Below are positions 5,152-33,800 of a stretch of 64,000 nucleotides of DNA, piece by piece. Source of the stretch: Trypanosoma brucei. Lineage: Eukaryota. The stretch spans positions 1,984,001 to 2,048,000 of the forward strand of contig CH464491.1 in NCBI GenBank assembly GCA_000002445.1, read 5' to 3'. Below the pieces are notes generated by a model, which was given only the letters and a program-made list of their open reading frames with translations, had not been told where the DNA came from and searched no databases. The translations under genes were made by a program, and so were the position numbers. Positions within the stretch are counted from its first letter, which is position 1, and every line of letters begins with the position of its first letter.

Positions 5152-8100
5152 TTACTTCTTTCTCCGTACGTTGTCCCCCCGGTTGGCCGCCTTGTATTGT
5201 TTCTGCTCCACATTCGAAGCAGTCCTCAATAGCTTTTGGTCAACAGCAAATGTTACCGTCTTGTCAGGAACCGAAAATATGGGGAGTACGCCGTACGTTG
5301 ACATACTGTTCTTGAGCCACTCGACCAACTCGGGGGTAGTGGAGCGCTCCCCGTCAGCTGCAGGGAAAGGCACCTCCCCTGAATACAGCCGAACGCACTC
5401 TGCTACCTTCTTCGCTTCAGCATCCACTACCAATATGTGAAAGAGTGACCGTTTGATCACCGCGAAAAGTTTTTTTACTTCCTCGGCACGAACACGTTTT
5501 TCACTGTCCTTCAAGTAGAGGACGGGGTCGTCAGCGCGTTCAAAGCTACAATGCCTACGCACAACCCTGCAGACTTCCCGGGAGGTAATATCCACGGACT
5601 GAATGTTCATTTTTGTCTCGTGGAACAACGATATAGACGCTGACTGACTTCCAACTTGAAAAAGGGTTTGTATTCCCCTTGCCTTCATAGCCTTCCGGAA
5701 CCCGCGTACATCTTGGTCGATGCGAAAACATGCACGTATATTATCCAGCCACAGATTTGCAGAGACAGTAAGAGCGGAATACTTCTGACCTGGCGAGTAA
5801 ACGTCCTGAGGCCGAACCGCAACGCCGCTGAGAAGCAGTCCATCTGTTTGTGGGAACCGAACATGTTCACACACCTCACCAAGTGCGAAAAGATCAACAC
5901 TCAAGCAGACGGCTTGCACGTCGGCATTTCGGGCCCCACATTTACTTGTAAAATTTTCAACACCGCAGCAAAAGGCGATGGCGTGGCCCCTCTCATGCGT
6001 ACGGCACTCGAAGAAAACCCCGTAGTCAATGAACGACCTATCAACGGACGTTTCGGCGGGCTTCAGCCTTGGGTCGATGCAAACACGAACGTTCGATGCC
6101 ACCTGTTTCCCAAATAACTGCAGGGCCTCCGTTATCCTCAAGGTAAAAGTCTTCAATGCTTCTAACCGGTCATGCGAAGAGACGATGTGGTTGCCATCAG
6201 AGAGAGTGCTGTCAACTTTATCAAGAATGGGCCCAATGCTTTTTCCCGGTTCAATGGACTCACATAGGTCACCCAAGTGATCTAACGACTCAACGGAACC
6301 GACTGTTCTTGAATGAGTCGCAGCTAGCCAATCAGCGTGGGATACAATAATCTCCAGTTTGGACTTCAATTCAGCCACCGACAGGAGGTGGAAGAACGAA
6401 AGCAGGGGATCAAGGAACATTTCATCAACTATTCCAGGGGCACTCGACGGAGTGGTGAATACGGCATACGGCCGGGACCTGTAATGAAAATGATAGAAAG
6501 ATCCAATATGGTGATTTGTGAGTAGAGTGAGGTGGTATGCGGTAGCAAGCTGCGGCTGGTTAGGGAACGCCCACACATTGGAGTTCATGTCGATCAGACA
6601 CGATACGTCCTGTTCGCTCAGGAGGGTGTTCAGGGGGACCAAAGGGTCAACGGATGCCAAGGGCATAGCGCCATGAAGCATTCCTATAATATTCACTGCT
6701 TGGATAAGATCAAGTGTAACTGTATGGGTAAGTGCCTTAACGGCATCCTTTACCTGCGGTGGGGGTTTGCAGTGCTGTTTCACTGATGCCTGCTTCACGC
6801 AGTGAAGTACGCGACCAGAAAAGCGTTCACCGTGTCTTTTTATTGTTTCTAGAGCTTCAACCACGTCTGCGGGATCGCCGGGAAGGTCAGCCTTATTTAA
6901 TATTTCCTCCGACGTTCTCCGTTTTCCCGGATCCCGCTCCAGGAGACTTGCAATCACCTCAGCCATTCTCGGATTCCAGGCGTAAAACCATTGAGGAATC
7001 GGTTTTCCACGACTAATATCCGTCATTATGTTGAACCTTTCCCTGAATCCCTGTCCGGCAACAGCCAACCACATCTCAAGCGCTATCATACCCAAGCTGT
7101 ATTCATCCACACTGAAGTCATAACTCTCACCCCGCTCTTGTTCCGGTGCGCAGTAAACAACGGATCCCAGGTTGCCTGTCGGAGAAGGACCCACTTCAAG
7201 TTCATCCAGTGGTCGCACATCATTCAATTCCACATTACTTGGGCTATGCTTCATCGATCGGTGTAGTGTCCGCGCTAACCCAAAATCTGCCACGCGAATG
7301 GTACCAACGTCATCGCTGCTCACGGAGCTCTGCATCTCGAACAGGATGTTGTCCGGCTTAAGATCACGGTGGACTATGCCTTGCCTGTGAAAGTGAGACA
7401 CGACCGTCAGCAACTGACGAAATATTTTCGTTGCCACCTTGTCCCCGTTCCCTGCAGTAAGCAAACTACCTTCCTCTTTGTCGCACTGATCGATCAGATG
7501 CCGCAGGCTATGTTTGGAACACAATTCCATTTGAATGTAAAGTGTAGAAAATTCCTCCTCCTTGTGGGAGTGCATTGGGCTCTGTAAGTCATACAACAGG
7601 TTGCTCTCCTCACCATCATCATCTTCCGCAGAGGAAGAGCAGGAGTAGCATGTTGTGTTTGTTGTCTCCCCGCCACCCTCACCATAGTCGGAGGCGCCGC
7701 CGACCCTAATGCTACCACCGATAGTAGACCGGCGGTTTGAGTCGTAGCTGTGAGTGGTAGATCCATCACCATCGACACAATCGTCCTCAACCTCTTCATC
7801 GCCGTCGAGAACGTAGTCCAACAACTCATCGTCGCACCCCGGCTCGATCCATGCATCGTAGTACCGGACGATGTGTTTGTGGCTGAGAGCGGCCAAACTC
7901 TGAACCTCGCGCAGGGCCTTCTCTGCCTCATTTTTCCTTATCGCTATTTTCTTCACAGCATACAGACGACCATCAACCTTCTTCCGACAGACGTATACAG
8001 GAGCGAACCCACCAGATCCCAGAAGGCACTGCTCAATAAACTCGCTTCGGTACCGACCCGCTGACACTCTCCGGAACGTGCACGTGCCCTCTTCATGTGA

Positions 8101-8862
8101 CCACATCCACTTCATCAGAGGATCCGATCCATCGATGCACACCTGAATGGCATCGCTAAAGATTCGCTTGACGTACTCATACTTCCATGTCACGCATTTC
8201 TGCAAACCTTTTGGAATGAGTCTAGCATCGTTCAGCAAGTAGTTTACGAGTAACTGAAAATTACTGTTAGCTTCCTCCTTCGATTCAGGGTCTTTCAAAT
8301 GGCAACACTTGTTAAGTAAATGCAATGCCAGTACACTGAGCTTAACAACGTCACGTTTCAGCACGCTTTCCTCCGCTCCCGCGGGTGCCTTAGCATTTTC
8401 AATTTCCACCGTCGCTTGGGTTTGTGGGTGGCTATCCTCAGTAGATATCACTCGCTGCACAACTGATATGATCTGCATAATGCAGGGAGCCCCGGCAAGA
8501 AGACAAGGACTTATGGCATCTCTGATGTCCGTTTGGAGTTGTCCAATCTCCGCCTCACTTAGTACGCCATCAAGACCTACTGCTGCTTGGTGGGGAAAGA
8601 GAATACGGACCCTCGGTGCCACGAAGGGGTATCCACCAACGATGCTAACTTCCAACACCACACGCCGTGTGGGTTGCGTTGACGAATCAATGGTAAGCAG
8701 GACGACTGGGTGGAATCCTTCGCGCTCCACAATGTGAATGTCATCATAGTTCGCCCTTAGAAACTCGATTTCATCGGGTACCACATTGGTTACTTCGGTT
8801 TGGCCCTCTGAAATCAAGTCGAACGAAAGACATCCTTCAAACTTTCCCTCGTCTACGTGCAT
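5152..8862 (-). CDS. eIF2K1: eIF2alpha kinase of GCN2 type (1236 aa). Domain order: N-terminal RWD domain, protein kinase domain with a large acidic/Ser-rich insert, and C-terminal HisRS-like/anticodon-binding-like region.
   Basis: ATG verified at 8862-8860. Kinase motifs: GSGGFAPVY (Gly loop), AVKK, HRQGIVHRDLKPDNILF, and DFGLAR. The insert between subdomains is typical of eIF2alpha kinases. The N-terminal fragment LTIDSS...VSIVGGYPFVAPRV fits an RWD/UBC-like fold. The C-terminal 450 aa resemble a class II aaRS-like core. Confidence 0.8.
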   Translation of the reverse strand: MHVDEGKFEGCLSFDLISEGQTEVTNVVPDEIEFLRANYDDIHIVEREGFHPVVLLTIDSSTQPTRRVVLEVSIVGGYPFVAPRVRILFPHQAAVGLDGVLSEAEIGQLQTDIRDAISPCLLAGAPCIMQIISVVQRVISTEDSHPQTQATVEIENAKAPAGAEESVLKRDVVKLSVLALHLLNKCCHLKDPESKEEANSNFQLLVNYLLNDARLIPKGLQKCVTWKYEYVKRIFSDAIQVCIDGSDPLMKWMWSHEEGTCTFRRVSAGRYRSEFIEQCLLGSGGFAPVYVCRKKVDGRLYAVKKIAIRKNEAEKALREVQSLAALSHKHIVRYYDAWIEPGCDDELLDYVLDGDEEVEDDCVDGDGSTTHSYDSNRRSTIGGSIRVGGASDYGEGGGETTNTTCYSCSSSAEDDDGEESNLLYDLQSPMHSHKEEEFSTLYIQMELCSKHSLRHLIDQCDKEEGSLLTAGNGDKVATKIFRQLLTVVSHFHRQGIVHRDLKPDNILFEMQSSVSSDDVGTIRVADFGLARTLHRSMKHSPSNVELNDVRPLDELEVGPSPTGNLGSVVYCAPEQERGESYDFSVDEYSLGMIALEMWLAVAGQGFRERFNIMTDISRGKPIPQWFYAWNPRMAEVIASLLERDPGKRRTSEEILNKADLPGDPADVVEALETIKRHGERFSGRVLHCVKQASVKQHCKPPPQVKDAVKALTHTVTLDLIQAVNIIGMLHGAMPLASVDPLVPLNTLLSEQDVSCLIDMNSNVWAFPNQPQLATAYHLTLLTNHHIGSFYHFHYRSRPYAVFTTPSSAPGIVDEMFLDPLLSFFHLLSVAELKSKLEIIVSHADWLAATHSRTVGSVESLDHLGDLCESIEPGKSIGPILDKVDSTLSDGNHIVSSHDRLEALKTFTLRITEALQLFGKQVASNVRVCIDPRLKPAETSVDRSFIDYGVFFECRTHERGHAIAFCCGVENFTSKCGARNADVQAVCLSVDLFALGEVCEHVRFPQTDGLLLSGVAVRPQDVYSPGQKYSALTVSANLWLDNIRACFRIDQDVRGFRKAMKARGIQTLFQVGSQSASISLFHETKMNIQSVDITSREVCRVVRRHCSFERADDPVLYLKDSEKRVRAEEVKKLFAVIKRSLFHILVVDAEAKKVAECVRLYSGEVPFPAADGERSTTPELVEWLKNSMSTYGVLPIFSVPDKTVTFAVDQKLLRTASNVEQKQYKAANRGDNVRRKK

Positions 8863-9119
8863 TCAAAAATTGAACTATTACCTCCGATACCCTCTGCGTG
8901 AATAAGGGGCGTTTCGTCTTGACCTACATACAAAGAATGTATACAGATATAGTAAGGGAAAGAAGCGTGTGCCCAGAGATATCACCTTTGTGTGGGCTTG
9001 GGGGTTCCACCAAAATACCTCAGTTGCTGTGCTCCAGCTGCGACAGGGAACAAGTATATATAAAACCTCGAGGAAGAGAGCGGGTAAACAATGGGGACGA
9101 TCGCAGGTGCTGCTTCTTT

Positions 9120-11978
9120 CTAGACGGTGGGGCACGCAGATGTCACGCGGCGCACGCCTCGGGAAAGGAAGTGTAGGCTGGCCAAGTTTACCGTGGTGCG
9201 CGGAACCTTTTCTGCGACAGCCTTGTAACCAACCCTGGCCTCACTTACCGTTTTGTCCGCGTGGCAAGCAACGCAAAGTGTCTGTAGGTTGTCTAAATCA
9301 GAAGATCCCCCTCCTTGGGATACGGCTAGTATGTGATCTGCATTCCAGATGCTCCCCGGAGTAGGGTGCTCAACAATTCGGTTAAAAAGCACAGGGTGCT
9401 GTCGAAGTTGGGGGTGCAACCTGTCAAGTATATCTTCCCGTTCACTTCGACTAGTCGCAGCGACTGCTAAAGAATAAAGCAGTTCACAATCCACCTGACA
9501 AACCGAACAGATACCTTTGTCTACCTCCTGAACGCCCCTGCGGGCTGCAGAGCTGGACCGTTTGATAAAGAATACCCCGCGGCAGGCACCGCTACAAAAC
9601 ATCCGGGTATCATCGTCTATACGCACGACGCTGCCTGGTGAAATGAACTCCGAAGCTACCAGCGTACTGTCGCACTCCAAACACACCGGCAGAAAATGAG
9701 TTTCTAAAGGGACTAGCAATGCCCCGTAAGTGCGCTCGGGGAAATTGCGTTTCACTACCTTCCAGAAAAACACCCTGCCCAAGAGAATGTCGCTCTTGGC
9801 GTAACGGACAACTGTTTTCCGAGGTGCTCTCACCGGACGCCACGTAAAGTTAGATGGAAGCCAGGCGGCAGCCGTCCGCAGTCTCCGCCGTTCAACAGGA
9901 GATAACATATCGACATGGCTCAAGTAATCCCTCAGCTGCCTTGGAAACTCACCATCATGCCGCCAGTACTGCTGTGCCTCCTGAGTCGACAAACTCGTTA
10001 GATGCTTGCCTTCATGAACCACATGAATTCGACCTGTGTTGTGGCTGATACGGAAGAGAAGGGGTGCCGATAACCCTGATATGTCCAAAAAGGAGGGGGC
10101 TGGATGTCCCGCAGACGGAGTGGCTTCTTCCTCTAGTAACGCATTATGTACAGGCGCAGTGCCACTTAGGTAGCTTGCATCTAACGACAGCTTCACACCA
10201 TCGGTAATGCGCCTCACTGCTTGAAAAGATCGAGAAAGACGCGAAAACTGGGCCCCATCAAAGAAGGATCCCGTACTTATAATGTAATACAGAATGACAT
10301 GATTTTTCTGCCCAGGGCGGTGAAGCCGATCTTCCGCTTGCTGCATCCAACCGATGTCGGGCGGAAGTTCCGCAAACAACGCGCAGGAAGCACCTGTCAA
10401 CCGAACTCCAACCGCACAAGCAGTGATCCCGACAAGCGCTACAGAGACGTCCCCATCATTAAAACGTGAGAGCAGTTCCACTCTCGAGTTCATGGGAGTC
10501 CCTCCATCGATACGTATCCATGTAACCTTCTTATCGTTTACGTAAGTCGTCAGGCAATCCAAAAGATTAAGATGATGTGCAAAAAGCACAATTTTTCCAT
10601 GCTTGCAAAGCAAAAGGTCAACAATGTCTAGTATTTTTTCACGACTTTCAATCCAATTATCCGAATAAACCTTTTGGAAGAGGGACTTGTTCTTCTGACC
10701 CCTGATTGCATCAGTTGGAATACGCAAAATAACTCGTTGTTTCGTTGGCAAATCAACTAATGTTTCCGATTTAAGCCGACGAATCATGCAGGTTGCGTTT
10801 AGCAATGAATGCAATTCGGTACTTCGCGTACACTCAAATGTCCTAAAATATGGTGAGAACTCAATACGACAGTATCGCAAAGCAAATTCGAACCTTGAAG
10901 AGCCAAGCAAACCGGGACAGACCGTATCAACCTGGTTGAAAAGGTCAAAAGGGGTCGACAGCGAGGGAGTCCCGGTGAGAAGCAAACAATACTTTGTTCG
11001 CCTTCCGAGTTCACACAACAGGGTGGTGTAGTGTGCATCACAGGAAGCGTCAACTGAAGTATGGAGAATATGGCTTTCATCGACGACTAGGGAGCTCCAT
11101 TGACGACTCTTCATGTGGTTGGCCAACAAGGAAACCATATGAAAACTTGTGACAACAACCTTAGGTTCATCACTGCGGGAAAGGAAGTCACTCGAGGAAG
11201 TAATAACGCGAATATCGTCCATGTTCAGAACATCCATGAGCCATTTCTCCAACTCGTCCGCCCACATGTGCCGCAACGCGGCAGGGCAGACAATAAGTGC
11301 TGGAAAGGCGTTCAAGGCGGCCAAGGTTCCAATGGCTTGAAGGGTTTTACCAACACCCATTTCGTCAGCAAACATGGCCCGGCCACCGAATGACAACGCT
11401 TTACAAATCCCATCCACCTGATGCCGGTGTAACGCAGCCATAAGTTTTGGTGGCAGAAGATCCGGTAAATGGACAGCTTTGTTTTCTTTAACGGTTGATA
11501 TCGCTTCCCTGCAAACTCTTGAAGGCTCATTGACGTGGAGACGGTTTCCGCTCTCACCCGATAACATCCTAAGCTCATGCAGAAGGAGATCCAGTGAGTC
11601 AATGGAGTATCGAAAGCAGCCCTCTTGTATCATTGTCGACTCGCTCAAACTAAGTGGCAGCTCTTTCATAATTTGAAGGGAAGCTGAGGTAGTCATATTC
11701 ATGAAACCTAAGCGAACACATCTGTTGGTAAAATCGATTTCCACTTGCGCTATTTTGCAGTTATGTGTGGAAATCCGACCCGATATAACGGGGACAAATT
11801 CGATGAACCTTTCCCCCTCATTCAACTCTGCAACGTAATCACGAAGAACAGATTGCACGTTAAGAATTCCGTCAGGGCAACGGCACTCGAACACGCAACC
11901 AAAACGGGAAATCCTGAATAATCTCTGTGAACAGCAATCAAAGCAGTATTCCTGACCCCTTCGAAGTAGCTGCTCCAT
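9120..11978 (-). CDS. SNF2-family DNA translocase fused to a C-terminal HNH endonuclease (952 aa). This is a ZRANB3 / annealing-helicase-like architecture. There is a Cys-rich N-terminal extension and a Cys cluster between the helicase-C and HNH parts.
   Basis: ATG verified at 11978-11976. SNF2 N-lobe motifs: LHRHQVDG, DEMGVGKT (Walker A), and DESHIL (DExH). Helicase C motifs: LFAELPPDIGWMQQAEDRLHRPGQ. HNH motif near the C-terminus (about nt 9230-9350): WNADHILAVSQGGGSSDLDNLQTLCVACHADKT. Confidence 0.8.
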   Translation of the reverse strand: MEQLLRRGQEYCFDCCSQRLFRISRFGCVFECRCPDGILNVQSVLRDYVAELNEGERFIEFVPVISGRISTHNCKIAQVEIDFTNRCVRLGFMNMTTSASLQIMKELPLSLSESTMIQEGCFRYSIDSLDLLLHELRMLSGESGNRLHVNEPSRVCREAISTVKENKAVHLPDLLPPKLMAALHRHQVDGICKALSFGGRAMFADEMGVGKTLQAIGTLAALNAFPALIVCPAALRHMWADELEKWLMDVLNMDDIRVITSSSDFLSRSDEPKVVVTSFHMVSLLANHMKSRQWSSLVVDESHILHTSVDASCDAHYTTLLCELGRRTKYCLLLTGTPSLSTPFDLFNQVDTVCPGLLGSSRFEFALRYCRIEFSPYFRTFECTRSTELHSLLNATCMIRRLKSETLVDLPTKQRVILRIPTDAIRGQKNKSLFQKVYSDNWIESREKILDIVDLLLCKHGKIVLFAHHLNLLDCLTTYVNDKKVTWIRIDGGTPMNSRVELLSRFNDGDVSVALVGITACAVGVRLTGASCALFAELPPDIGWMQQAEDRLHRPGQKNHVILYYIISTGSFFDGAQFSRLSRSFQAVRRITDGVKLSLDASYLSGTAPVHNALLEEEATPSAGHPAPSFLDISGLSAPLLFRISHNTGRIHVVHEGKHLTSLSTQEAQQYWRHDGEFPRQLRDYLSHVDMLSPVERRRLRTAAAWLPSNFTWRPVRAPRKTVVRYAKSDILLGRVFFWKVVKRNFPERTYGALLVPLETHFLPVCLECDSTLVASEFISPGSVVRIDDDTRMFCSGACRGVFFIKRSSSAARRGVQEVDKGICSVCQVDCELLYSLAVAATSRSEREDILDRLHPQLRQHPVLFNRIVEHPTPGSIWNADHILAVSQGGGSSDLDNLQTLCVACHADKTVSEARVGYKAVAEKVPRTTVNLASLHFLSRGVRRVTSACPTV

Positions 11979-13253: not shown

Positions 13254-14165
13254 TTAATAACCCTGCTGAATACTTTCCGCTAGTGGGGGTTTGTGCTCCC
13301 CTCCATCCACCATCTCCTGTGGTGTCTTCCTACTCATAGCCTTCCTACTTGGTCTTGGTGGTTCTTTTATGTACATTGGCTTCGTTCGTACCTCACGATT
13401 GTTCTCTGCGTATCGGGCAAACTGCTCCCGTGCCTCCCGTTGATCTTCCAATTCCTCCCAAGTCAATTCCCACGAGTCTCTGTGCTCTATTGCAAGCAGT
13501 ACCATGTGTTTGGCAGCCTTTATCATGTCGTCCTGTTCCTTTTCAGTTAAGTCCCTCACCTTTTCAGCCGGATTTCCCGCCCACATTTCACCTGAGGGGA
13601 TGACCGCGCCTGACTGGAGAACCGAGGCTGCGCACAGCATGGAGCCAGACTCTATCTTTGCATCCCTCATCACAATGGCGTTAGCCCCGACGAAGGAGCA
13701 AGACGCTATATCAGCTGCATCAACAATCGCCATGGGTTCGATGGTCGTCCACTTGCCAATAGTTGTGCCTCCCGTCACGATCGCTTTCTCCTGTACGTTA
13801 CAGCTTTCCCCGAAATATATTGTTTCTCCCCTTTCTGCACGAACAATGGCATTATACCCAATATAATTCTTCCGCCCTACACGAACATCACCCGACAAAA
13901 ATGCACTAGGGGCAATGAAAACGTTATCCATCACGGTTGGACGCACTCCGTTTACTGCAAGGAGTCTTGGAACACAATTTAACGCTTCCCTTGGCTGCAC
14001 TCCCATTAACGCATCACTCAAGGAAATAATCTTCCTCGACACCACGGAAAGTTTTGTTGCCAGTCTGTCCAGCGCGAGAGCAAGTTTCGTTGGTTTTTTC
14101 ACCGCCCAGTCAGGAAGAACTGCCGGCATTTGCGCTTCAGCAAGCGCAAGCCTACACCGTTTCAT
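13254..14165 (-). CDS. Gamma-carbonic-anhydrase-like protein (303 aa) with a left-handed beta-helix made of hexapeptide repeats. Likely a mitochondrial complex I accessory subunit, as in plants and trypanosomatids.
   Basis: ATG at 14165-14163. Repeated [LIV]-G-x4 hexapeptide units: VFIAPSAFLSGDVRVGRKNYIGYNAIVRAERGETIYFGESCNVQEKAIV. C-terminal charged extension. Confidence 0.6.
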   Translation of the reverse strand: MKRCRLALAEAQMPAVLPDWAVKKPTKLALALDRLATKLSVVSRKIISLSDALMGVQPREALNCVPRLLAVNGVRPTVMDNVFIAPSAFLSGDVRVGRKNYIGYNAIVRAERGETIYFGESCNVQEKAIVTGGTTIGKWTTIEPMAIVDAADIASCSFVGANAIVMRDAKIESGSMLCAASVLQSGAVIPSGEMWAGNPAEKVRDLTEKEQDDMIKAAKHMVLLAIEHRDSWELTWEELEDQREAREQFARYAENNREVRTKPMYIKEPPRPSRKAMSRKTPQEMVDGGEHKPPLAESIQQGY

Positions 14166-14436: not shown

Positions 14437-15612
14437 TTACACAAGTCGTGTCAGACGCGCAACCACGCTATCAACAAGTCCCAGGACTACGAACAAGCCA
14501 CCAATTATTCCACAGAGTTGCACCAAAAAGTGGTATATCGGTTCTCGTTTGAAATTATTGTTCACCTGCATTGGAAAAAAATCGAAGGAAAACTCGACAG
14601 AAGGAAAACCACCATAGCCAATAGCCACTTCACGGGAATTCCAGTTTGCGCTGTATTCATATGTCGGGGGGTGGAGGCCAGATGAAGCGCCACTTCCGTA
14701 GGTGGTAGGCACTATGTTCAAATAATACCTGACCTTCATGAATCTTCCACTGCCGTTAAATCGTTGTTTCTCCAGTGGATTTAAAACACCTCGGCGAGAA
14801 TGACGTCTTACGCTTTCGTCCCCAATAGAAAATTTATTTATCACATGACTTGCATCAAATTTCAAAAGGTCCTCCATCTTGATTGTGTTTTTGATGACCT
14901 TTGGAGTGAAAAATATAACGCCACTCACTTTTCTTACATTCAAGGCACCCCTGTAATTACAGCCGGGGTTTTCCAGAGATAGTTCACCGATGCATTGCTC
15001 GACCACATTTTTATTCGGCCTCGGCAGTCCTTTTCTATCGTGTTCGGCCATAACTTCTTCGCAAGTGTTGCAGCAATTCTTACCTCCAGCGATGGCTTTA
15101 TTACCAGTAAAACACCTTCCGCAAAAGTCGGGGGAGTTGGGGTCATTTCTCCTAGTATATAAAGGGCTCCTGGGGTCTGTGAAAAAGCGTCGGGTGCCCA
15201 AATAGGCAAGATTTCCCCCTACATCCACGGGAGTTTTTAACAGGTTTTCCGTAACATTAATACTAAAAGTTCCGCTAACATCACTCACATCGAGGAAAAG
15301 ATCGTGACACGGCTCTTGCATGAATGTAATGTCAATATTAAAAGTGATATTCTTCTCAGGGCTGGTATCCACTGATAGTTCCGTCTTGTAGGCATTCCAA
15401 CCTAAAGTGTAGGACATAACTTCCCACGATGCAAGAAGCCCAACCGCAAAAACTGTTATAATGCTAATAATAGCACCAGCTCGGGTCTGGGATCGGCAAT
15501 AATCCTCCTTTGGTTTCGTGAAAAGGTCTACAGCTGCAACTTTCCGAAGCAAAAAGGACGACGGAACTGGCTCGTCGTCGCTTTCGCTGCTGCGTTTCCG
15601 GAGGCCTATCAT
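14437..15612 (-). CDS. ERGIC3/Erv46-family ER-to-Golgi vesicle protein (391 aa). Two terminal transmembrane helices flank a cysteine-rich luminal domain.
   Basis: ATG verified at 15612-15610. N-terminal TM: AGAIISIITVFAVGLLASW. C-terminal TM: FLVQLCGIIGGLFVVLGLV. Luminal cysteine pattern: DFCGRCFTG...NCCNTCEEV. Overall length and topology match ERGIC-32/Erv41/Erv46. Confidence 0.55.
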   Translation of the reverse strand: MIGLRKRSSESDDEPVPSSFLLRKVAAVDLFTKPKEDYCRSQTRAGAIISIITVFAVGLLASWEVMSYTLGWNAYKTELSVDTSPEKNITFNIDITFMQEPCHDLFLDVSDVSGTFSINVTENLLKTPVDVGGNLAYLGTRRFFTDPRSPLYTRRNDPNSPDFCGRCFTGNKAIAGGKNCCNTCEEVMAEHDRKGLPRPNKNVVEQCIGELSLENPGCNYRGALNVRKVSGVIFFTPKVIKNTIKMEDLLKFDASHVINKFSIGDESVRRHSRRGVLNPLEKQRFNGSGRFMKVRYYLNIVPTTYGSGASSGLHPPTYEYSANWNSREVAIGYGGFPSVEFSFDFFPMQVNNNFKREPIYHFLVQLCGIIGGLFVVLGLVDSVVARLTRLV

Positions 15613-18600: not shown

Positions 18601-19039
18601 TCCTTGGTGACCGCCGCCTTCCCTGAGCCCTCTCTGATTGGGGGGAGCGGAAGGGGATCCCGCCGGTTTCATCTCCGTCGTTGGAGAGTTACTTCCCCGG
18701 CCCCTTCGATCGATGTTTCCTCGTCCGTTTCTTTGGTTTATCGCACCTGTGTGGACGGGTTGTTGGTTTCTGGTACTTCGTCTTTTGATGTTCGAGCACG
18801 CCCTTTAACCTCTAGGTTGGACTCCTTCGACGCACGCATGTTCTTCCACAGTGCGGGCGCCGAGGTTTTTTTGTTTTGGCACCCCTTCTACCTGCGTGTA
18901 CAGCCAACGTGGATCAGCTGGTGGACACAGTTGGCCTCCGGGCGCGTCCTCTTTTAGCGGTATTCTCTGAAGGCGGGTGGTTAAGACTCATTTTTTATTT
19001 GTGCCGCTGTTACTTCAATGTGATCCTGACGCATCGTGC

Positions 19040-19300
19040 ATCTGCTTTGTTTGTGCTAGCTGATCGTTGCCACTGTTGGTTTGTTGCTGTCCCTATGTTG
19101 TTGTCTCTTACAGGGTGTGGTGGTAGTGTTTGCTTTACGTTCGTATGGTGAATGCCTTCTACGATGTTTTGATTTCCGGACGTTTTGGGTCTTTGGTTTT
19201 GTTAGTGTTTAGTGTTGACAAAGTTGTTAACGTTGGTGCTGCAGCCGACGTGGGACTGTGTGGGCCGTCGGTACTATTGGTGTGTGTAGCTCTCCCTCTT
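19040..19300 (+). promoter_or_regulatory. GT-rich tract on the plus strand about 300-500 bp upstream of the first plus-strand gene. Candidate GT-rich pol II initiation element of the type described for T. brucei TSSs.
   Basis: Read directly from the sequence: gtttgtgctagctgatcgttgccactgttggtttgttgctgtccctatgttgttgtctctta...gtgtggtggtagtgtttgctttacgttcgtatggtg...gttttgggtctttggttttgttagtgtttagtgttg. A weaker CA-rich mirror lies on the plus strand (GT-rich on the minus strand) near 15800-16260, on the side of the minus-strand unit. Confidence 0.4.
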
Positions 19301-19370
19301 GGCTTCGTTTCAACAGCCCTTTCACGTAGCAGGTAACGTGGTTGCTGTACCTTTGAGATGTATATATATA

Positions 19371-19385
19371 TATATTGGAAAGAAT
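19371..19385. repeat. (TA)7 microsatellite inside the strand-switch region.
   Basis: Read directly: tatatatatatatat. Confidence 0.85.
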
Positions 19386-19566
19386 TGTCCTACAAAAGGG
19401 ACAAGGGCAGCTGATTTACTTGAAGTAGAGAGGGTCGTTGGGAAGAGGGTTGTTTGGCTTCATTCTCCCAGATTAGCTAATTGGCGACAAAACGCAGTTT
19501 GCTACCATCTTTTTTGCTCTGCCTTTTCATGTTCTCCTACACTCTATAAAGCTGTTGCTAAACGCG

Positions 19567-20322
19567 ATGGCCAAACTTGGGACCTTGTACTCCGATGATA
19601 AAAGCGTAGAAAAATATTACGGTCAACGCCATCGGTTGTGGTCTCGTTTTGACGACGGCGTTTGGATGACGAAGAAAGGATGGTTCGAGGTGACGCCTGA
19701 AGGCATTGCCCGATCTTCTGCTTCCCTGCATGACGTTCTCAAAGATAAGGGATGTTGTTTGGATTTGTTTTGCGGCTGTGGCGGTGACACAGTCCAATTG
19801 GCTCAGGTTTTTGAAAAGGTAATAGCTGTAGATATAGATCCCGATGCTATAGAAGCAGCCAAAAAGAATGCCGAGGTATATGGTGTTTCGACTCGAGTTA
19901 CATTTCTGTGCGCCGACTACAGGACTCTAAAACCTGAAAACTTTTCCGTTAACGCTGTTCACTGCTCTCCCCCATGGGGCGGTGAACTGTATGCTGGTGC
20001 GCCGTTTTTCGATTTGCAAAATTCGCTTTGTGCCTCAAATGGCATAAAAATTTCGGACTTTTATGAACTGCTGTCAAAATTTTCGAATAATATTACCATG
20101 TTTCTACCGAGAAACACTCTTCTGTATTCAGTAGTTCCACCAAAATTTGCTTGGACCTTTGCGGTGTGTAGACACTATGCCAACGAAAAGTGCAAAGGGA
20201 TTACTATTTTGTGTGGCGATTTGGTAGCGTCTTCCCAGCTGAAAGCACCCTCAGCGCCAGTGTATTCAATACGAAATAAGATTCCACTTTGTGTAGAGAA
20301 GCGAGGGCGTGGGTCTTTGTGA
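19567..20322 (+). CDS. TGS1: Trimethylguanosine synthase (cap guanine-N2 methyltransferase), a compact 251-aa methyltransferase-only form.
   Basis: The ORF-track start at 19555 is TTG. The first ATG is at 19567 (MAKLGTLY), preceded by a polyY tract at 19506-19545 and an AG. Motifs: FEVTPE, VLDLFCGCGGDTVQLA (SAM motif I), VIAVDIDP, and SPPWGG (cap-guanine binding). Confidence 0.85.
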   Translation: MAKLGTLYSDDKSVEKYYGQRHRLWSRFDDGVWMTKKGWFEVTPEGIARSSASLHDVLKDKGCCLDLFCGCGGDTVQLAQVFEKVIAVDIDPDAIEAAKKNAEVYGVSTRVTFLCADYRTLKPENFSVNAVHCSPPWGGELYAGAPFFDLQNSLCASNGIKISDFYELLSKFSNNITMFLPRNTLLYSVVPPKFAWTFAVCRHYANEKCKGITILCGDLVASSQLKAPSAPVYSIRNKIPLCVEKRGRGSL

Positions 20323-23166: not shown

Positions 23167-24477
23167 ATGAAACGAAGGAGGGACAGTAACGGTAAGTCCA
23201 TTGCGGCACTTAGGGCTGGGGTGGCAGCGCTGAGCGTATCTAGCAATATAGCTTCTAGGGAGCTCACCTGTCGTGATTCCCATGTTAAAGCTATATTAGA
23301 CTTCTTGAATGATAAAGTTCACCCTGTCATGCAGGTTTTCGGTATGCCGGGTACGGGAAAGACAGCGTCAGTGAACCACGCCCTCGCTCTTCTTGCGAGC
23401 TCGTCACCAGCAGGGTCGAAGCCCACAGCTGTCTTTCTTAATGGGTACATTATACAAAAAACATCTGATATATACTGGACCTTGAACTCACACCTAAGCA
23501 AAACTCGGTTAAAACATGCTGAAAATTGCTTACCGGAGCAATGTCCTGCTCTGATCGAAAAGAGATTTAAGCAAGGTTGGGGGAGTAGCACTACGCCCTT
23601 ATGTGTGATAGTTGTCGATGAAGTTGACAAAGTCCTTAAAAAGCACAACAAGGCGTTTTTCAGGATAGTAGATTGGTTAAGTCTACCGTATGCGTTTTGT
23701 AAACTGATAACAATTTCAAATAGCATGGAACTGGCAGCTGATGCGAAAACGAGAAGTCGACTGGACATAACGAAACGTCTCGTCTTCGAACCATATAGTC
23801 TGCCTGAGCTCAAGGAAATTATTCTTCGAAGAGTCAGTCACATCAAACCTACGTTATTTGCAGAGAAAGCAATCAACTATCTATGTAACCAAACTGCATC
23901 GCACTACGGGGATGTGAGACGTCTTTTACAATCTGCTTCCTCCGCCATTTGCGGTCTCATGATGAGAATAGAGGAGGGTTACAAGTTGCCGGAGAAGCAT
24001 GATGGCTTGCTAACTGTAAAGGATGTTCACTCAGTTGTTCGCCAAATATTTCACGATCGCTTTGTTGAGTTTATCCAAACTATTCGTCTTCCCGTAGTGT
24101 TTATCAGCGTTGCTGTCATTGCAGTAGAGACAGCAAGGCTTTTTCGAGCGAACTGCGAGGACAGCCGACTACCCATAGATAGCTTGTTTACGGCAACGAA
24201 GAGAGCCCAAGAGCGTTTTGGCTCAGTTTTTGCAGACCTACATGCCGTCACTTTGAACTATGGGGCGTACCTAGAAATAGTAGAGATGCTGCGGGAGGTA
24301 GCACTGATTGACGTTTCGGTAGGTGAAGAGCGCATTCCCGTCAAAACGGTTCAGTCACTACTCGAGGCCACTGAGAGGGCACACGCGTCAATGCTACAAC
24401 CATTCCAAACAGTCGTCGATGCATGCAAGCTCCACGATGACTTTGGTACGGGGATATGCCCACTGTTTTCGATATAG
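23167..24477 (+). CDS. ORC1: Origin recognition complex subunit ORC1/CDC6 (436 aa), an AAA+ ATPase.
   Basis: ATG verified at 23167. Walker A: VFGMPGTGKTASV. Walker B: CVIVVDEVDKV. Sensor regions and a winged-helix-like C-terminus. The 436-aa length matches what I recall for the T. brucei ORC1/CDC6 protein. Confidence 0.85.
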   Translation: MKRRRDSNGKSIAALRAGVAALSVSSNIASRELTCRDSHVKAILDFLNDKVHPVMQVFGMPGTGKTASVNHALALLASSSPAGSKPTAVFLNGYIIQKTSDIYWTLNSHLSKTRLKHAENCLPEQCPALIEKRFKQGWGSSTTPLCVIVVDEVDKVLKKHNKAFFRIVDWLSLPYAFCKLITISNSMELAADAKTRSRLDITKRLVFEPYSLPELKEIILRRVSHIKPTLFAEKAINYLCNQTASHYGDVRRLLQSASSAICGLMMRIEEGYKLPEKHDGLLTVKDVHSVVRQIFHDRFVEFIQTIRLPVVFISVAVIAVETARLFRANCEDSRLPIDSLFTATKRAQERFGSVFADLHAVTLNYGAYLEIVEMLREVALIDVSVGEERIPVKTVQSLLEATERAHASMLQPFQTVVDACKLHDDFGTGICPLFSI

Positions 24478-30800: not shown

Positions 30801-33800
30801 AAAGGTGGTGCATGGTATCGATGCTAGTGTCTCAAAAGCGCACCAAATCATTTGGTAGAAACCCTAAATATTTGCTGAACGTTCAACTTTCATTGTACAC
30901 AGGGAGTCAAGCCGATGCCCAGCCATCAGTAGTGATGAAGCTGAGTGATATAAGGTGTCATGGAACGTGTAAGGGCGGTCAGTTGCTCCGAGAGGTAAAC
31001 ATGGTTTCGCTTGTCATGACGGATGGACCGCCAACTAACTATCCGCGGCGGTTTCTTTTGGGTTCGCTTGGCGCGTTCGGTGGAGTGCTCTCGCGGGTTG
31101 AGGTGGAGATGCTCTTTGCCATGGGAAGTGACTCCTTGTTTTCACTCCATTTCATGGACAAGAAATTTGTGAATAATCTCTTTCCGGCGCTGGCCTACAT
31201 GTCTGAGAGAAACCGAGGAAAACACGGGGCGCAGCTTATGCGATTGGCAGTGCCGTGGTTGGCGCAGGGTTACGCCAACGCGGAGAATGCCATTTTGGCT
31301 TCTACATTCCCCTTTGCAGTGTATCAGAAAAGGGAGCGACAGGTGGTTGTCGCTGGCGTGCGCAACGGCGACCTCTGCGTCGAGTCGAACGCAGAATACC
31401 TTCAACCCACCAATGACAGACCAAAAGTGCAGGGCAGCGGCGCTGAGGAGACGCTTCCACCGGCTTCTGCGCGGTCAGTAAAGAGTGGAACCCGGATCCC
31501 TGTACCGATTTTCCTGGGCGTGCGCTCCGTGTCCGATTTGCAGAACTCTGGGGTTGCGGGGGAAGACATGTTAGCGCTGTTGAATGCGCCACAGTTTATA
31601 TGCAGCACGCCCCTGTATTCCATTTTGGATGCGCTAGGTGGTCCACCTTTCTTCTTGTGTTTTTCCTCCTTGCAACTTCCCCACTCGGGGGCATTCGAGG
31701 AGGCGTGGGAATGTGCATGCGCTGCAGTTAAATGGCACACAACTAACAATCTACTTTGCCCTAAGGCCCAACGTGGGGACGCCCATCTCCTTGCGTTAGT
31801 CAAAGCCTTGCTTTATCATCGGATACATGTATCAGAGACAACGGCATCCTCCTTGTGCGATGTTGTTGGTGACCGACTCATCACCCGTATGGATATTCTA
31901 CCACTTCTTCTTGAGTTTACTGTTTGGGCGAGGGATACCGGTGCTTTTCGCTTTGTTGTGGGTAAATTGCGTCAGTATATCCTTGACGATGTGTATGGCC
32001 GTTTCAACAGACAAATACTTGGTGCTGGTCGTCATATTGCGTCAACTGAGGGCGAATGCAATGCTTTGGAGGAGTTTCTTTTGCATCTTCACATACACTT
32101 TTCAGAAGGCATTGTTGGTAGTTGGGATACCTCTCTCATTCCCTTTGCCACAGAGTTTCTGACGGCTCTGTGCCAAACGGCGACTCACGCGAGAAGGGTT
32201 GTGAAGGCGGCCACTGCTCTGCTCGCTTTGGACAAACCCTTGACGTCCGCGGCGATAGAGTGGGTGATTGGCCTCTTAGAGGCTGTGTTTTATTTAATGA
32301 ACGAGAATGTTATTCTTTGTGGAGATGAATCTGCGAGTTTAGCTGAAGACATTACCGCCATTTTTAAGTCTTCACACGAGGCCGTGCGTCGCAAGGCACT
32401 GTCTTTGTTTTCACGCACACCAATGTCTAGGACCCAGTTAGACGCCGTAATAAGCCAGTACATGGTGAGGGGAGTCCTCTCTTCGGTTGACGACTTGCTC
32501 TCTGAGGAGGAGTTTCTTACTATTGTGGGGATCATTGAACGAAGCGCGGCCTCAGGTGACACCACTCGAGCTCGTGGGCTTCTGTATTTTCTCGTCACAC
32601 TTCTTTCCCACGTCCCAAATGAAATTCGGTTGGGTATCCTGTCACTGCTCGAGGAGATAACGTGTGAAAGAGGCGCATTTGAGGGTGGGCTTCTTTCTCC
32701 TCTTGACACCGGTGGGTTCCCTGTCTCTCTGTTGTATGGCCGCTTGCTGCACGTGCTGCATATGGTAGAGGGCAATTGCTCCTCCTTGGTTGAGTCATTT
32801 GTGAGGTTGGTGATCCGTATGTGTGTGGGAATGGTTTCGGTCTCGTGTGAGAGAAATGACATGAATTGTGGCCATCTCCTAGGTGAAGTGGGTCTAGCCT
32901 CTCTAACGTGTGTAGCGTCGATATTAAAACGTTCTGGACGTGAGGGATCGCTTGATGCTTGCATCAGCAGCGCGTTAATCCGGGCTTACCGGTATTCATC
33001 TGAAGTGTTACGTGCCTACAGCATGCATCTTGAGAAGGGAACTGCTACCGGAGCGTTTCTGATGAGCTATGTTTCGTTCCTAAAATCCACTGCAATTGTT
33101 GTGATTCTTCTAAGTTGGTGTGAAAGAGACTATCGGCTCTCTAGTGAGGTTAAAGTAGAAGATGAGAGTTGCGTTTGCCATGCGGCGGCGGAGGCTTACT
33201 TGGCTCAGTTTTCGAAACCTATTCATTTTGGAGACCACCACCTTAGTGCCCGCCTCTGCATGTCATTTTTTGAAGGTGGGCAAAGGTTATTTTTCCAGTT
33301 GCAGCAAGCTGGCACCACTGGGCTTCACGCCAAGGAAGTAAAGCAGATCTCTCAGGAGTTACTGACACTGCAATGGAGAGTGGCAGTGACCCTACTAAAT
33401 GACGCAGACACGAGCGGAGAAGATCTTATGAAAGAGCTTGCTCTTCTATATGTTGCAAGTAGCGGCAGCGCCAGTTACGGCTTTAAGTTTTCGACTTGGA
33501 AGGAGAGAGAGAGGTTGGTTGAACCACCATTGGGTTCCGACTGGAAGCATTTGCAATTCGCTCCCGGTGCTTTAATTACTGAGCTTCTGAAAGTGGATTA
33601 TGAGAGAGCGGTGAGGGAGAGCGCCCCATGGCTAATCGTTTCTAGAGGTGCATCAAGTCTTCTTAGTGAATCTCGGCTGGAGAATTCTAGTCGATACAAC
33701 ATGGCGGTGTCCATATGCCGTCTTGTGCGGTACAACAGCGGTATTTGGTCTAACGTGAAGGGGGGGTTTACTCCATTGTCCGTTGCGGAACTGGATTCGA

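What the first reader, a model, noticed from the sequence alone, without database searches (positions are those of the whole stretch)
9120..11978. SNF2 translocase fused to an HNH nuclease (ZRANB3-like) in a kinetoplastid genome
One 952-aa ORF carries complete SNF2 ATPase motifs (GVGKT, DESH, helicase-C arginine finger region) and then a textbook HNH endonuclease motif (DHILAVSQGGG..NLQTLCVACHADKT) at the extreme C-terminus. This architecture is characteristic of metazoan ZRANB3 (annealing helicase 2, a replication-fork remodeler with structure-specific nuclease). To my knowledge it has not been functionally described in trypanosomatids. The protein also has a Cys-rich N-terminal extension (CFDCCSQRLFRISRFGCVFECRCPDG) and a second Cys cluster between the motor and the nuclease (CSGACRG...CSVCQVDC). 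These could be zinc-binding modules in place of the NZF/PIP elements of ZRANB3. A fork-reversal enzyme with an attached nuclease would bear on replication stress handling and antigenic-variation-type recombination in these parasites.
Basis: partly seen in the sequence, partly recalled or inferred. Interest (0 to 1): 0.6.

Follow-up and report, generated by a model that had tools for sequence, protein, structure and literature searches.

The report
Trypanosome ZRANB3-like fork-remodelling nuclease gene
This Trypanosoma brucei gene (most probably Tb927.11.7211) encodes the parasite's counterpart of the human DNA-replication-stress enzyme ZRANB3, a DNA motor with an attached nuclease; it is a real but unstudied member of a known, pan-eukaryotic family, and it carries an unusual parasite-lineage-specific N-terminal DNA-binding module in place of the human enzyme's PCNA- and ubiquitin-binding motifs.

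Summary
Window 9120-11978 (minus strand) is a 952-aa ORF with an intact SNF2 ATPase and a complete HNH nuclease. It is T. brucei chromosome 11, UniProt Q384V0, most probably Tb927.11.7211, annotated only as "SNF2 DNA repair protein, putative".

It belongs to the ZRANB3 family.
- One collinear alignment to Selaginella ZRANB3 spans motor to HNH (E 6e-99).
- The substrate-recognition domain and a CxxC...FCxxxC finger match plant, algal and animal members (hhalign 97-98%).

- The architecture is pan-eukaryotic, not metazoan.
- The "second Cys cluster" is an ancestral ZRANB3 finger plus half of the HNH zinc site. It does not replace the NZF or PIP.
- The N-terminal Cys cluster is a topoisomerase-I-type zinc ribbon. 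It opens a 175-aa module found only in these orthologues among 1.84 billion proteins.
- PIP, NZF and APIM are absent.

A published genome-wide RNAi screen lists Tb927.11.7211 as "No effects" for growth or MMS.

Verdict: an uncharacterised member of a known family. Interest is modest.

The parts
9120..11978 (-). Complete CDS, 952 aa plus stop. It is T. brucei Q384V0 / XP_828793.1, most probably Tb927.11.7211, annotated 'SNF2 DNA repair protein, putative'.
   Evidence: ORF. The exact sequence is found in the database. The ID is inferred from the neighbours TbK1 = Tb927.11.7210 (primer match) and ORC1/CDC6 = Tb927.11.7216. The annotation string for that ID comes from the Stortz 2017 S1 table.
11868..11951 (-). 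Topoisomerase-I-type C4 zinc ribbon, residues 10-37. Probable ligands are C12 and C15, plus C32 and C34 (C28 is also nearly invariant).
   Evidence: The Cys residues are nearly invariant in orthologues. The N-terminal profile hits an E. coli Topo I ribbon at E 0.016. In an exhaustive search it hits only Topo IA ribbon repeats outside the orthologues (E 6.5e-7 to 9e-4). All 8 such hits tested carry PF01396. Pfam's own model does not hit the protein directly.
11529..11810 (-). N-terminal alpha/beta domain, residues about 57-150. It is restricted to this lineage and may act as a junction- or DNA-recognition domain.
10659..11456 (-). SNF2 ATPase lobe 1, residues 175-440. Contains Walker A (G208-T212), DExH (D300-H303) and motif III (T335-P338, TGTP).
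   Evidence: Pfam SNF2-rel_dom E 5.9e-27. The motifs are invariant in 18 orthologues. 35% identity to the Anolis ZRANB3 motor, E 5e-66.
10254..10634 (-). SNF2 ATPase lobe 2 (Helicase_C), residues 449-575. Contains motif VI, QAEDRLHRPGQ, at 547-557.
   Evidence: Pfam Helicase_C E 1.2e-11. The motif is invariant.
9693..10073 (-). ZRANB3-type substrate-recognition domain (SRD), residues 636-762. It begins with LLFRISHNTGRIHV.
   Evidence: It lies collinear inside the single BLASTP alignment to Selaginella ZRANB3. hhalign against the plant/algal/animal SRD gives probability 96.7%, E 4.4e-10, over 102 columns. The human SRD is defined as N720-T869.
9561..9689 (-). CxxC...FCxxxC zinc finger (FCS/TRASH-like), residues 764-806. 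Ligands are C766, C769, C795 and C799.
   Evidence: The Cys residues are invariant. There is a weak Pfam TRASH hit at E 0.008, below the cut-off. The finger is present in animal, plant and algal ZRANB3. hhalign gives 97.7%, E 1.7e-12.
9225..9551 (-). ZRANB3-type HNH nuclease domain, residues 810-918. It has a four-Cys zinc site (C824, C827, C902, C905), the ZRANB3-specific helical insert (about 832-876) and catalytic D881, H882, N897 and H906.
9135..9200 (-). Conserved C-terminal tail motif, TTV-x2-A...RV[TS]xxR, residues 927-948. Its function is unknown. It sits where human ZRANB3 carries its APIM.
   Evidence: The motif is conserved among Trypanosoma, Leishmaniinae-like and Phytomonas orthologues in alignment A1. 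It matches neither the PIP nor the APIM pattern.

Best explanation
The gene encodes the trypanosome orthologue of the ZRANB3 family, also called annealing helicase 2.

Shown here:
- An SNF2 double-stranded-DNA translocase core with every ATPase motif intact.
- After it, in the same order as in plant, algal and animal ZRANB3: the substrate-recognition domain, a CxxC...FCxxxC zinc finger, and an HNH nuclease of the specific ZRANB3 subtype. That subtype has a four-Cys structural zinc site, a helical insert and catalytic D-H...N...H.

Inferred from the biochemistry of the human enzyme:
- The motor and SRD bind forked or splayed DNA.
- ATP hydrolysis drives branch migration, strand annealing and fork regression.
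- ATP hydrolysis also licenses the HNH domain to nick the duplex near the junction.
- The enzyme would therefore act in replication-stress tolerance.

The trypanosome version differs in two ways. It lacks the three metazoan modules that bind PCNA or ubiquitin-PCNA (PIP box, NZF, APIM). It instead carries a lineage-restricted N-terminal module: a topoisomerase-I-type zinc ribbon plus a small alpha/beta domain. I infer that this module helps target the enzyme directly to single-stranded or branched DNA.
For: - ORF and motifs.
- Best relatives outside kinetoplastids are proteins named ZRANB3, at E 1e-103 to 1e-62, nearly all with an HNH domain. The best other SNF2 subfamilies in the PDB score only about 1e-24.
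- One collinear BLASTP alignment covers residues 175-915 against Selaginella ZRANB3, E 6e-99.
- Against Anolis ZRANB3, the motor scores E 5e-66 and the finger plus HNH E 2e-21.
- SRD and finger homology by hhalign: 96.7% and 97.7%.
- The catalytic and zinc residues defined by mutagenesis and crystallography in human ZRANB3 are invariant in 18 orthologues.
- The order of signature motifs is the same in kinetoplastid, plant, algal and animal members; the two stramenopile-like sequences checked (P0089, P0113) lack one or two HNH motifs.
- Prokaryote genomes contain matches to the HNH core only.
- N-terminal ribbon.
- Absence of PIP, APIM and NZF.
Against: - No enzymatic, localisation or interaction data exist for this protein.
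- In the published bloodstream-form genome-wide RNAi screen, Tb927.11.7211 is classed 'No effects' (T/C 1.17, Tm/T 0.77). Knock-down therefore gave no detectable growth defect or MMS sensitivity.
- I did not build a tree that includes SMARCAL1, so subfamily placement rests on best hits and shared accessory domains.
- Absence of canonical PIP and APIM patterns does not exclude a non-canonical PCNA-binding motif. Rice CHR721 binds PCNA through such a motif.
- T. brucei has Ala at position 885, where at least 90% of the aligned orthologues have Pro (DHIxPV). The effect is unknown.
Confidence: 0.85

Rival explanations
1. It is a SMARCAL1-type annealing helicase, or another SNF2 subfamily member, that acquired an HNH domain independently. 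On this view the resemblance to ZRANB3 is convergent.
For: ZRANB3 and SMARCAL1 motors are close paralogues. The protein has a globular domain N-terminal to the motor, as SMARCAL1 does, with weak fold similarity to XPB-DRD and UvsW-N. UvsW-N is described as a HARP domain. I made no explicit tree with SMARCAL1.
Against: Three separate accessory elements that define ZRANB3 are homologous and collinear: the SRD, the CxxC...FCxxxC finger, and the HNH with its ZRANB3-specific helical insert. The review describes SMARCAL1 as lacking both the SRD and nuclease activity. Pfam HARP (PF07443) gives no hit in the protein. The first 120 database hits are ZRANB3-like.
Confidence: 0.03
2. It is a prokaryote-derived SNF2-HNH protein, of the defence or 'bacterial ZRANB3-like' type, acquired by horizontal transfer into kinetoplastids.
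For: HNH domains and SNF2-HNH fusions exist in bacteria. Sebesta et al. mention bacterial ZRANB3-like proteins.
Against: All named close relatives are eukaryotic. A pattern scan of 185,579 prokaryotic species' genomes with the C-terminal profile found only 3 loci, and these match only about 40 residues of the HNH core. The gene sits in an ordinary polycistronic unit of housekeeping genes, with no change in composition. Orthologues occur in Trypanosoma, Phytomonas, Leptomonas, Lotmaria and more distant relatives.
Confidence: 0.02
3. It is a true ZRANB3-family protein, but its cellular role has diverged from PCNA-coupled fork reversal. Recruitment would be driven by DNA structure. Possible roles include R-loop or transcription-replication conflict processing, recombination intermediates, or kinetoplast DNA. 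It could also be largely redundant.
For: PIP, NZF and APIM are all absent. There is a lineage-restricted N-terminal module with a Topo-I-type ribbon. RNAi gave no growth or MMS phenotype. No localisation entry was found in the TrypTag supplement text.
Against: The catalytic machinery and SRD are under strong conservation, which points to the same basic biochemistry. Non-canonical PCNA motifs cannot be excluded. Pooled RNAi screens miss mild or condition-specific phenotypes. Nothing here positively indicates a different pathway.
Confidence: 0.1

Closest known systems
Human/vertebrate ZRANB3 (annealing helicase 2; HNH domain structure PDB 5MKW)
   Different: No PIP box, no NZF (RanBP2-type finger) and no APIM. 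The linker between motor and SRD is short (about 50 aa). There is an additional 175-aa N-terminal module (zinc ribbon plus alpha/beta domain), whereas the vertebrate motor begins almost at residue 1. There is a trypanosomatid-specific C-terminal tail motif.
Plant, algal and stramenopile ZRANB3-like proteins (e.g. Selaginella 'DNA annealing helicase and endonuclease ZRANB3')
   Same: Full collinear homology from motor to HNH (E 6e-99). These proteins also lack the NZF and also carry an N-terminal extension before the motor. Some algal and stramenopile members likewise begin with a Cys-rich ribbon.
   Different: The N-terminal extensions are not detectably homologous to the kinetoplastid one (hhalign below 1%), although the algal and plant extensions match each other (93%). 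Several land-plant members (e.g. P0032, P0024) start with an EEQRRRxEANR helix that is absent here.
SMARCAL1 (HARP)
   Same: Closely related SNF2 motor subfamily. Has a globular domain N-terminal to the motor. Expected annealing and fork-regression chemistry.
   Different: The review describes SMARCAL1 as lacking the SRD and any nuclease activity, and it has no ZRANB3-type finger. It uses HARP domains and an RPA-binding motif, and neither is detectable by sequence here.
Bacterial topoisomerase IA C-terminal zinc ribbons (Pfam Zn_ribbon_Top1, PF01396)
   Same: A C-x2-C...[RK]FG.[FY]..C..C ribbon pattern. The kinetoplastid N-terminal profile retrieves these ribbons as its only hits outside the orthologues.
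   Different: A single copy, fused to an SNF2 motor and not to a topoisomerase. The Pfam model itself does not reach E <= 1 on the trypanosome protein.

Membership tests
ZRANB3 family (SNF2-SRD-HNH) | SNF2 ATPase core with intact Walker A, DExH, motif III and motif VI | tested here: met
   Pfam E 5.9e-27 and 1.2e-11. The motifs are invariant in 18 orthologues.
ZRANB3 family (SNF2-SRD-HNH) | The motor is closer to ZRANB3 than to other SNF2 subfamilies | tested here: met
   The first 120 hits outside the species are ZRANB3 or ZRANB3-like, at E down to 1e-103. The best PDB chains of other subfamilies reach about 1e-24. This is a best-hit criterion only.
ZRANB3 family (SNF2-SRD-HNH) | Monophyly with ZRANB3 in a tree that includes SMARCAL1 and other SNF2 subfamilies | not tested
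   No SMARCAL1 motor sequences could be obtained.
ZRANB3 family (SNF2-SRD-HNH) | Substrate-recognition domain C-terminal to the motor (human N720-T869) | tested here: met
   hhalign 96.7%, E 4.4e-10, 102 columns. It is collinear in the BLASTP alignment. The human Trp790 position is not conserved in kinetoplastids.
ZRANB3 family (SNF2-SRD-HNH) | HNH domain with a four-Cys structural zinc site, the ZRANB3-specific helical domain and catalytic D/H/N/H | tested here: met
ZRANB3 family (SNF2-SRD-HNH) | CxxC...FCxxxC finger immediately before the HNH | tested here: met
   Invariant C766, C769, C795 and C799. hhalign 97.7%. Present in Anolis, plants and algae.
Metazoan ZRANB3 sensu stricto | PIP box (Q-x-x-[VILM]-x-x-[FY]-[FY]) between the motor and the NZF | tested here: not met
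   No match in T. brucei and none conserved in orthologues. The only degenerate match lies inside the helicase fold.
Metazoan ZRANB3 sensu stricto | NZF / RanBP2-type zinc finger that binds K63-polyubiquitinated PCNA | tested here: not met
   No PF00641 hit and no W-x-C-x2-C...C-x2-C pattern. It is present in the Anolis and scallop controls.
Metazoan ZRANB3 sensu stricto | C-terminal APIM | tested here: not met
   No [KR][FYW][LIVA][LIVA][KR] pattern. A different conserved tail motif occupies this position. My strict pattern also misses the Anolis tail (RFFVK), so only sequences close to the canonical motif are excluded.
ZRANB3 family (SNF2-SRD-HNH) | ATP-dependent structure-specific endonuclease and fork-regression activity | not testable with these tools
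   This needs biochemistry.
SMARCAL1 | HARP domain(s) N-terminal to the motor | tested here: inconclusive
SMARCAL1 | No nuclease domain; RPA-binding N-terminal motif | tested here: not met
   The protein has a complete HNH. No EEQ[RK]..E.NR-type motif is present.
Zn_ribbon_Top1 (PF01396) | C4 ribbon with sequence similarity to topoisomerase IA ribbons | tested here: met
   The kinetoplastid profile hits Topo IA ribbon repeats at E 6.5e-7 to 9e-4, library-wide. 8 of 8 tested carry PF01396. E. coli TopA scores E 0.016. Caveat: the Pfam model does not itself hit the protein at E <= 1.
Prokaryotic SNF2-HNH proteins | Closest relatives are prokaryotic | tested here: not met
   Only HNH-core matches in 3 of 185,579 species' genomes. 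The top hits are eukaryotic.

The most novel reading that the evidence does not exclude
Kinetoplastid (Discoba) ZRANB3-like enzymes have replaced recruitment through PCNA and ubiquitin (PIP, NZF and APIM are all absent) with a lineage-restricted N-terminal module. This module consists of a topoisomerase-IA-type zinc ribbon that binds single-stranded DNA, plus a HARP/UvsW-N-like junction-recognition domain. The enzyme would then find stalled forks or other branched DNA directly. In one polypeptide it would combine the SMARCAL1 design (a fork-recognition domain ahead of the motor) with the ZRANB3 design (SRD and HNH behind it). Together with the plant and algal N-terminal extensions, this would suggest that the ancestral eukaryotic enzyme had an N-terminal DNA-recognition module, and that the PCNA-coupled metazoan form is the derived one.
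Probability: 0.3. Interest if true: 0.5.

Novelty: new member of a known kind. Interest (0 to 1): 0.3.

Why it matters
Fork reversal and its enzymes are essentially unexplored in trypanosomatids. In these parasites replication stress, transcription-replication conflicts and break-induced recombination are central to genome plasticity and, in T. brucei, to VSG switching.

This work identifies Tb927.11.7211 as the ZRANB3-family enzyme. It provides mapped catalytic residues (K211, D881/H882, N897, H906) and delimited domains. That gives the field a concrete gene to mutate and separation-of-function alleles to build.

The finding also extends the documented range of the ZRANB3 family to Discoba, which supports an origin in the last eukaryotic common ancestor. 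It further shows that the PCNA-binding modules studied in human cells are not universal to the family.

The practical importance is tempered by the lack of any phenotype in the one available genome-wide RNAi screen.

Tried and rejected
- **Homology of the kinetoplastid N-terminus to plant, algal or stramenopile N-terminal extensions.** hhalign gives below 1%, so I rejected it at the sequence level.
- **PIP, APIM, NZF and RPA-binding motif scans.** All negative.
- **Second Cys cluster as a novel module.** Rejected. It is the ancestral ZRANB3 finger plus the HNH zinc site.
- **Literature under the name 'SNF2 DNA repair protein'.** This led to different genes: Tb927.3.5440 (ATRX-like), Tb927.7.4650 and Tb927.11.5690.
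- **Guessed old-style and new-style gene IDs.** These gave no hits until the neighbour anchors resolved the ID.
- **TrypTag supplement.** No entry for the ID in the text held.
- **AFDB Foldseek.** The library was unavailable.
- **Rice CHR721 paper.** That protein is a 747-aa SMARCAL1-subfamily protein without an HNH. It is useful only as a precedent for non-canonical PIP boxes.
- **Prokaryote scan.** Only HNH-core matches.
- **tRNA scan of the window.** None found.
Full report
**1. Observation**

The window contains, on the minus strand at 9120..11978, an ATG-initiated ORF of 952 codons. Pfam finds SNF2-rel_dom (residues 201-426, E 5.9e-27), Helicase_C (451-556, E 1.2e-11) and HNH (877-910, E 3.9e-8, 33.7 bits against a cut-off of 21.4). 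The start codon is supported because nearly all full-length orthologues in the alignment start at the same Met with ME.LL/ME.FL.

**2. Source and gene identity**

The protein is 100% identical to T. brucei brucei TREU927 XP_828793.1 / UniProt Q384V0, and to a T. equiperdum entry. Both are named only "SNF2 DNA repair protein, putative".

The downstream neighbour at 5152..8862(-) is an RWD-plus-kinase protein. A published RNAi primer for TbK1 (Tb927.11.7210, PMC5861040) matches it exactly at 6245-6264. A 436-aa AAA/Cdc6-ORC-like gene at 23167..24477(+) fits TbORC1/CDC6, which is Tb927.11.7216 (PMC4889932). Tb927.11.7212 is a complex-I-associated protein (PMC8312217), which fits the hexapeptide-repeat gene at 13254..14165.

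The numbering therefore makes the SNF2-HNH gene Tb927.11.7211. That ID carries exactly this annotation in the S1 table of Stortz et al. 2017. The assignment is an inference from adjacency plus annotation, not a sequence match.

**3. Family assignment**

Orthologues occur in other trypanosomes (58-66% identity) and in Phytomonas, Leptomonas and Lotmaria (about 40%). More distant relatives (32-37%) appear in environmental assemblies and EukProt transcriptomes.

Beyond these, the best hits are plant, algal, stramenopile-like and animal proteins. Most are named "DNA annealing helicase and endonuclease ZRANB3" and nearly all carry an HNH domain (E 1e-103 to 1e-62). The best chains from other SNF2 subfamilies in the PDB (SMARCAD1, INO80, CHD1L, ERCC6) reach only about 1e-24.

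A single BLASTP alignment to Selaginella ZRANB3 runs collinearly from residue 175 to 915 (30% identity, E 6e-99). Against Anolis ZRANB3, the motor gives 35% identity (E 5e-66) and the finger-plus-HNH region 34% (E 2e-21).

I then tested each post-motor element separately.
- The segment that begins LLFRISHNTGRIHV aligns with the ZRANB3 substrate-recognition domain of plants, algae and animals (hhalign 96.7%, E 4.4e-10, 102 columns). The SRD was defined functionally in human ZRANB3 as N720-T869.
- The CxxC...FCxxxC element (C766, C769, C795, C799; all invariant) aligns with the same element in those proteins (97.7%, E 1.7e-12).
- A profile of the kinetoplastid C-terminal half hits the human ZRANB3 HNH crystal structure 5MKW at E 8.1e-28 over 114 positions. 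The next HNH in the PDB reaches only 1e-5.

Sebesta et al. 2017 (PMC5481773) showed that human D1020, H1021 and H1045 are essential for cleavage and that N1036 is important. They also showed that four cysteines hold a non-catalytic zinc and that a ZRANB3-specific helical domain (975-1013) is needed. These correspond to D881, H882, H906, N897, C824/C827/C902/C905 and residues about 832-876, and all the point residues are invariant in 18 orthologues.

**4. What the Cys clusters are**

The "second cluster" is not a lineage-specific replacement for the NZF or PIP. CSGACRG is the second half of the ancestral finger, and Anolis ZRANB3 has this finger in addition to its NZF. CSVCQ is the first CxxC dyad of the HNH zinc site.

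The N-terminal cluster (C12, C15, C28, C32, C34) is a real, nearly invariant feature.
- A profile of residues 1-178 weakly matches a zinc ribbon of E. coli topoisomerase I (E 0.016).
- In an exhaustive HMMER search of 1.84 billion representative proteins, its only hits beyond the orthologues are 12 proteins that match positions about 6-45 in 2-4 repeats (E 6.5e-7 to 9e-4).
- All eight of those that I tested are topoisomerase IA C-terminal regions built from Zn_ribbon_Top1 (PF01396) repeats.

The cluster is therefore a topoisomerase-I-type C4 ribbon. In topoisomerase IA these ribbons contact single-stranded DNA; that point rests on established knowledge and was not tested here.

**5. The N-terminal module as a whole**

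The module models confidently (pLDDT 84.5, pTM 0.71). It consists of the ribbon, a helix, and an alpha/beta domain of four to five strands and two helices.

The full module is found in only about 10 cluster representatives. The two newly found ones scanned with Pfam (P0121, P0122) and those already in the orthologue set are SNF2(-HNH) proteins of this lineage.

The module shows no sequence relationship to the N-terminal extensions of plant or algal ZRANB3-like proteins (hhalign below 1%). Those extensions are related to each other (93%, E 4e-7).

**6. What is missing**

There is no canonical PIP box, APIM or NZF in the T. brucei protein, and none is conserved among its orthologues. The NZF pattern is found in the animal controls. 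My strict APIM pattern, however, also misses the Anolis tail. The linker between motor and SRD, where human ZRANB3 carries the PIP and NZF, is only about 50 residues long and is predicted to be disordered.

After the HNH there is a tail motif, TTV..A...RV[TS]xxR, conserved across trypanosomatids. Its function is unknown. Non-canonical PCNA-binding motifs exist in related plant proteins (PMC8974069), so PCNA binding cannot be excluded.

**7. Rival origins**

A pattern-based scan of one genome from each of 185,579 prokaryotic species with the C-terminal profile returned three loci, and these match only the HNH core of about 40 residues. The gene lies in a normal polycistronic run of housekeeping genes with unremarkable composition. 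Horizontal acquisition from bacteria, and independent fusion onto a non-ZRANB3 motor, are both very unlikely.

The one formal gap is that I could not build a tree that includes SMARCAL1.

**8. Mechanism**

Shown: intact ATPase motifs, the SRD, the finger, the HNH catalytic and zinc sites, and the N-terminal ribbon.

Inferred from human ZRANB3: the motor and SRD recognise splayed or forked DNA, ATP hydrolysis drives annealing and fork regression, and cleavage by the HNH is ATP-dependent and structure-specific.

Speculative: recruitment occurs through the N-terminal ribbon and alpha/beta module, or through the C-terminal tail, and not through PCNA or ubiquitin.

**9. Existing functional data**

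In the bloodstream-form genome-wide RIT-seq screen, Tb927.11.7211 has normalised reads of 26.9 (day 1), 31.35 (day 5) and 24.15 (day 5 plus MMS). The ratios are T/C 1.165 and Tm/T 0.77, and the summary is "No effects". No localisation entry was found in the TrypTag supplement text held.

No paper in the searchable library discusses ZRANB3 in trypanosomatids. [quoted passage not shown]

**10. Verdict**

This is a genuine, correctly recognised ZRANB3-family gene. Its domains are already visible in public annotation, but it has never been characterised or named as such. It is a new member of a known kind.

The modest novelty lies in two things: the lineage-restricted N-terminal ribbon-plus-alpha/beta module, and the absence of the metazoan PCNA-coupling motifs. 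Interest is about 0.3. A specialist would find it useful but not surprising.

Noticed in passing
window 15613-19554 (between ORFs 14437..15612(-) and 19555..20322(+)): This is a divergent strand-switch region. All large ORFs to the left are on the minus strand and all to the right are on the plus strand. GC skew changes sign at about 17-18 kb. In T. brucei such regions are Pol II transcription start regions and often replication origins; that is my own knowledge and was not tested.
   Followed up: no
window 23167-24477 (+): A 436-aa AAA+ / Cdc6-ORC-like protein. It fits TbORC1/CDC6 (Tb927.11.7216), the replication initiator, and lies about 11 kb from the ZRANB3-like gene. This is probably a coincidence of gene order.
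   Followed up: partly
window 47554-51957 (+): A 1467-aa ORF with an unusual three-domain fusion: an endonuclease/exonuclease/phosphatase-family domain (39-334), an AMP-binding enzyme domain (479-725) and a Fumble/pantothenate-kinase domain (1060-1459).
   Followed up: no
window 9135-9200 (-), residues 927-948: A tail motif, TTV-x2-A...RV[TS]xxR, lies after the HNH. It is conserved in Trypanosoma, Leishmaniinae-like and Phytomonas orthologues but absent from the most distant ones. It sits where human ZRANB3 has its APIM. Its function is unknown.
   Followed up: partly
window 9324-9326 (-), residue 885: The T. brucei group has Ala in DHILAV, where at least 90% of the aligned orthologues have Pro (DHIxPV), as do the human and Anolis sequences.
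   Followed up: no
protein P0122 (hit): This 992-aa database protein joins ERGIC_N and COPII-ERV domains to the N-terminal module and SNF2 start. It is probably a gene-model fusion in another kinetoplastid. If so, the ERV/ERGIC gene (window 14437..15612) and the ZRANB3-like gene are syntenic neighbours there too.
   Followed up: no
proteins P0032, P0024, P0026, P0029 and others (land-plant ZRANB3-like): Land-plant members begin with an EEQRRRxEANR(L)AAL helix. From memory this resembles the RPA32-binding motif at the N-terminus of SMARCAL1. Algal and stramenopile members instead begin with Cys-rich ribbons; P0109, for example, has C..C.G.M..R.GKFG.FWGCSNW. The N-terminal recruitment module of this family seems to have been swapped repeatedly.
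   Followed up: partly
window 27806-36934 (+): A 3042-aa BEACH-domain protein (PH_BEACH, BEACH and WD40). A 224-aa antisense ORF at 32290..32964 lies inside it and is presumably spurious.
   Followed up: no
window 8969-9364 (+): A 131-aa GTG-initiated ORF lies antisense to the 3' end of the ZRANB3-like gene. It has no support and is presumably a chance ORF.
   Followed up: no
Stortz 2017 S1 table: [quoted passage not shown] At least four T. brucei genes share this uninformative name: Tb927.3.5440, Tb927.7.4650, Tb927.11.5690 and Tb927.11.7211.
   Followed up: no
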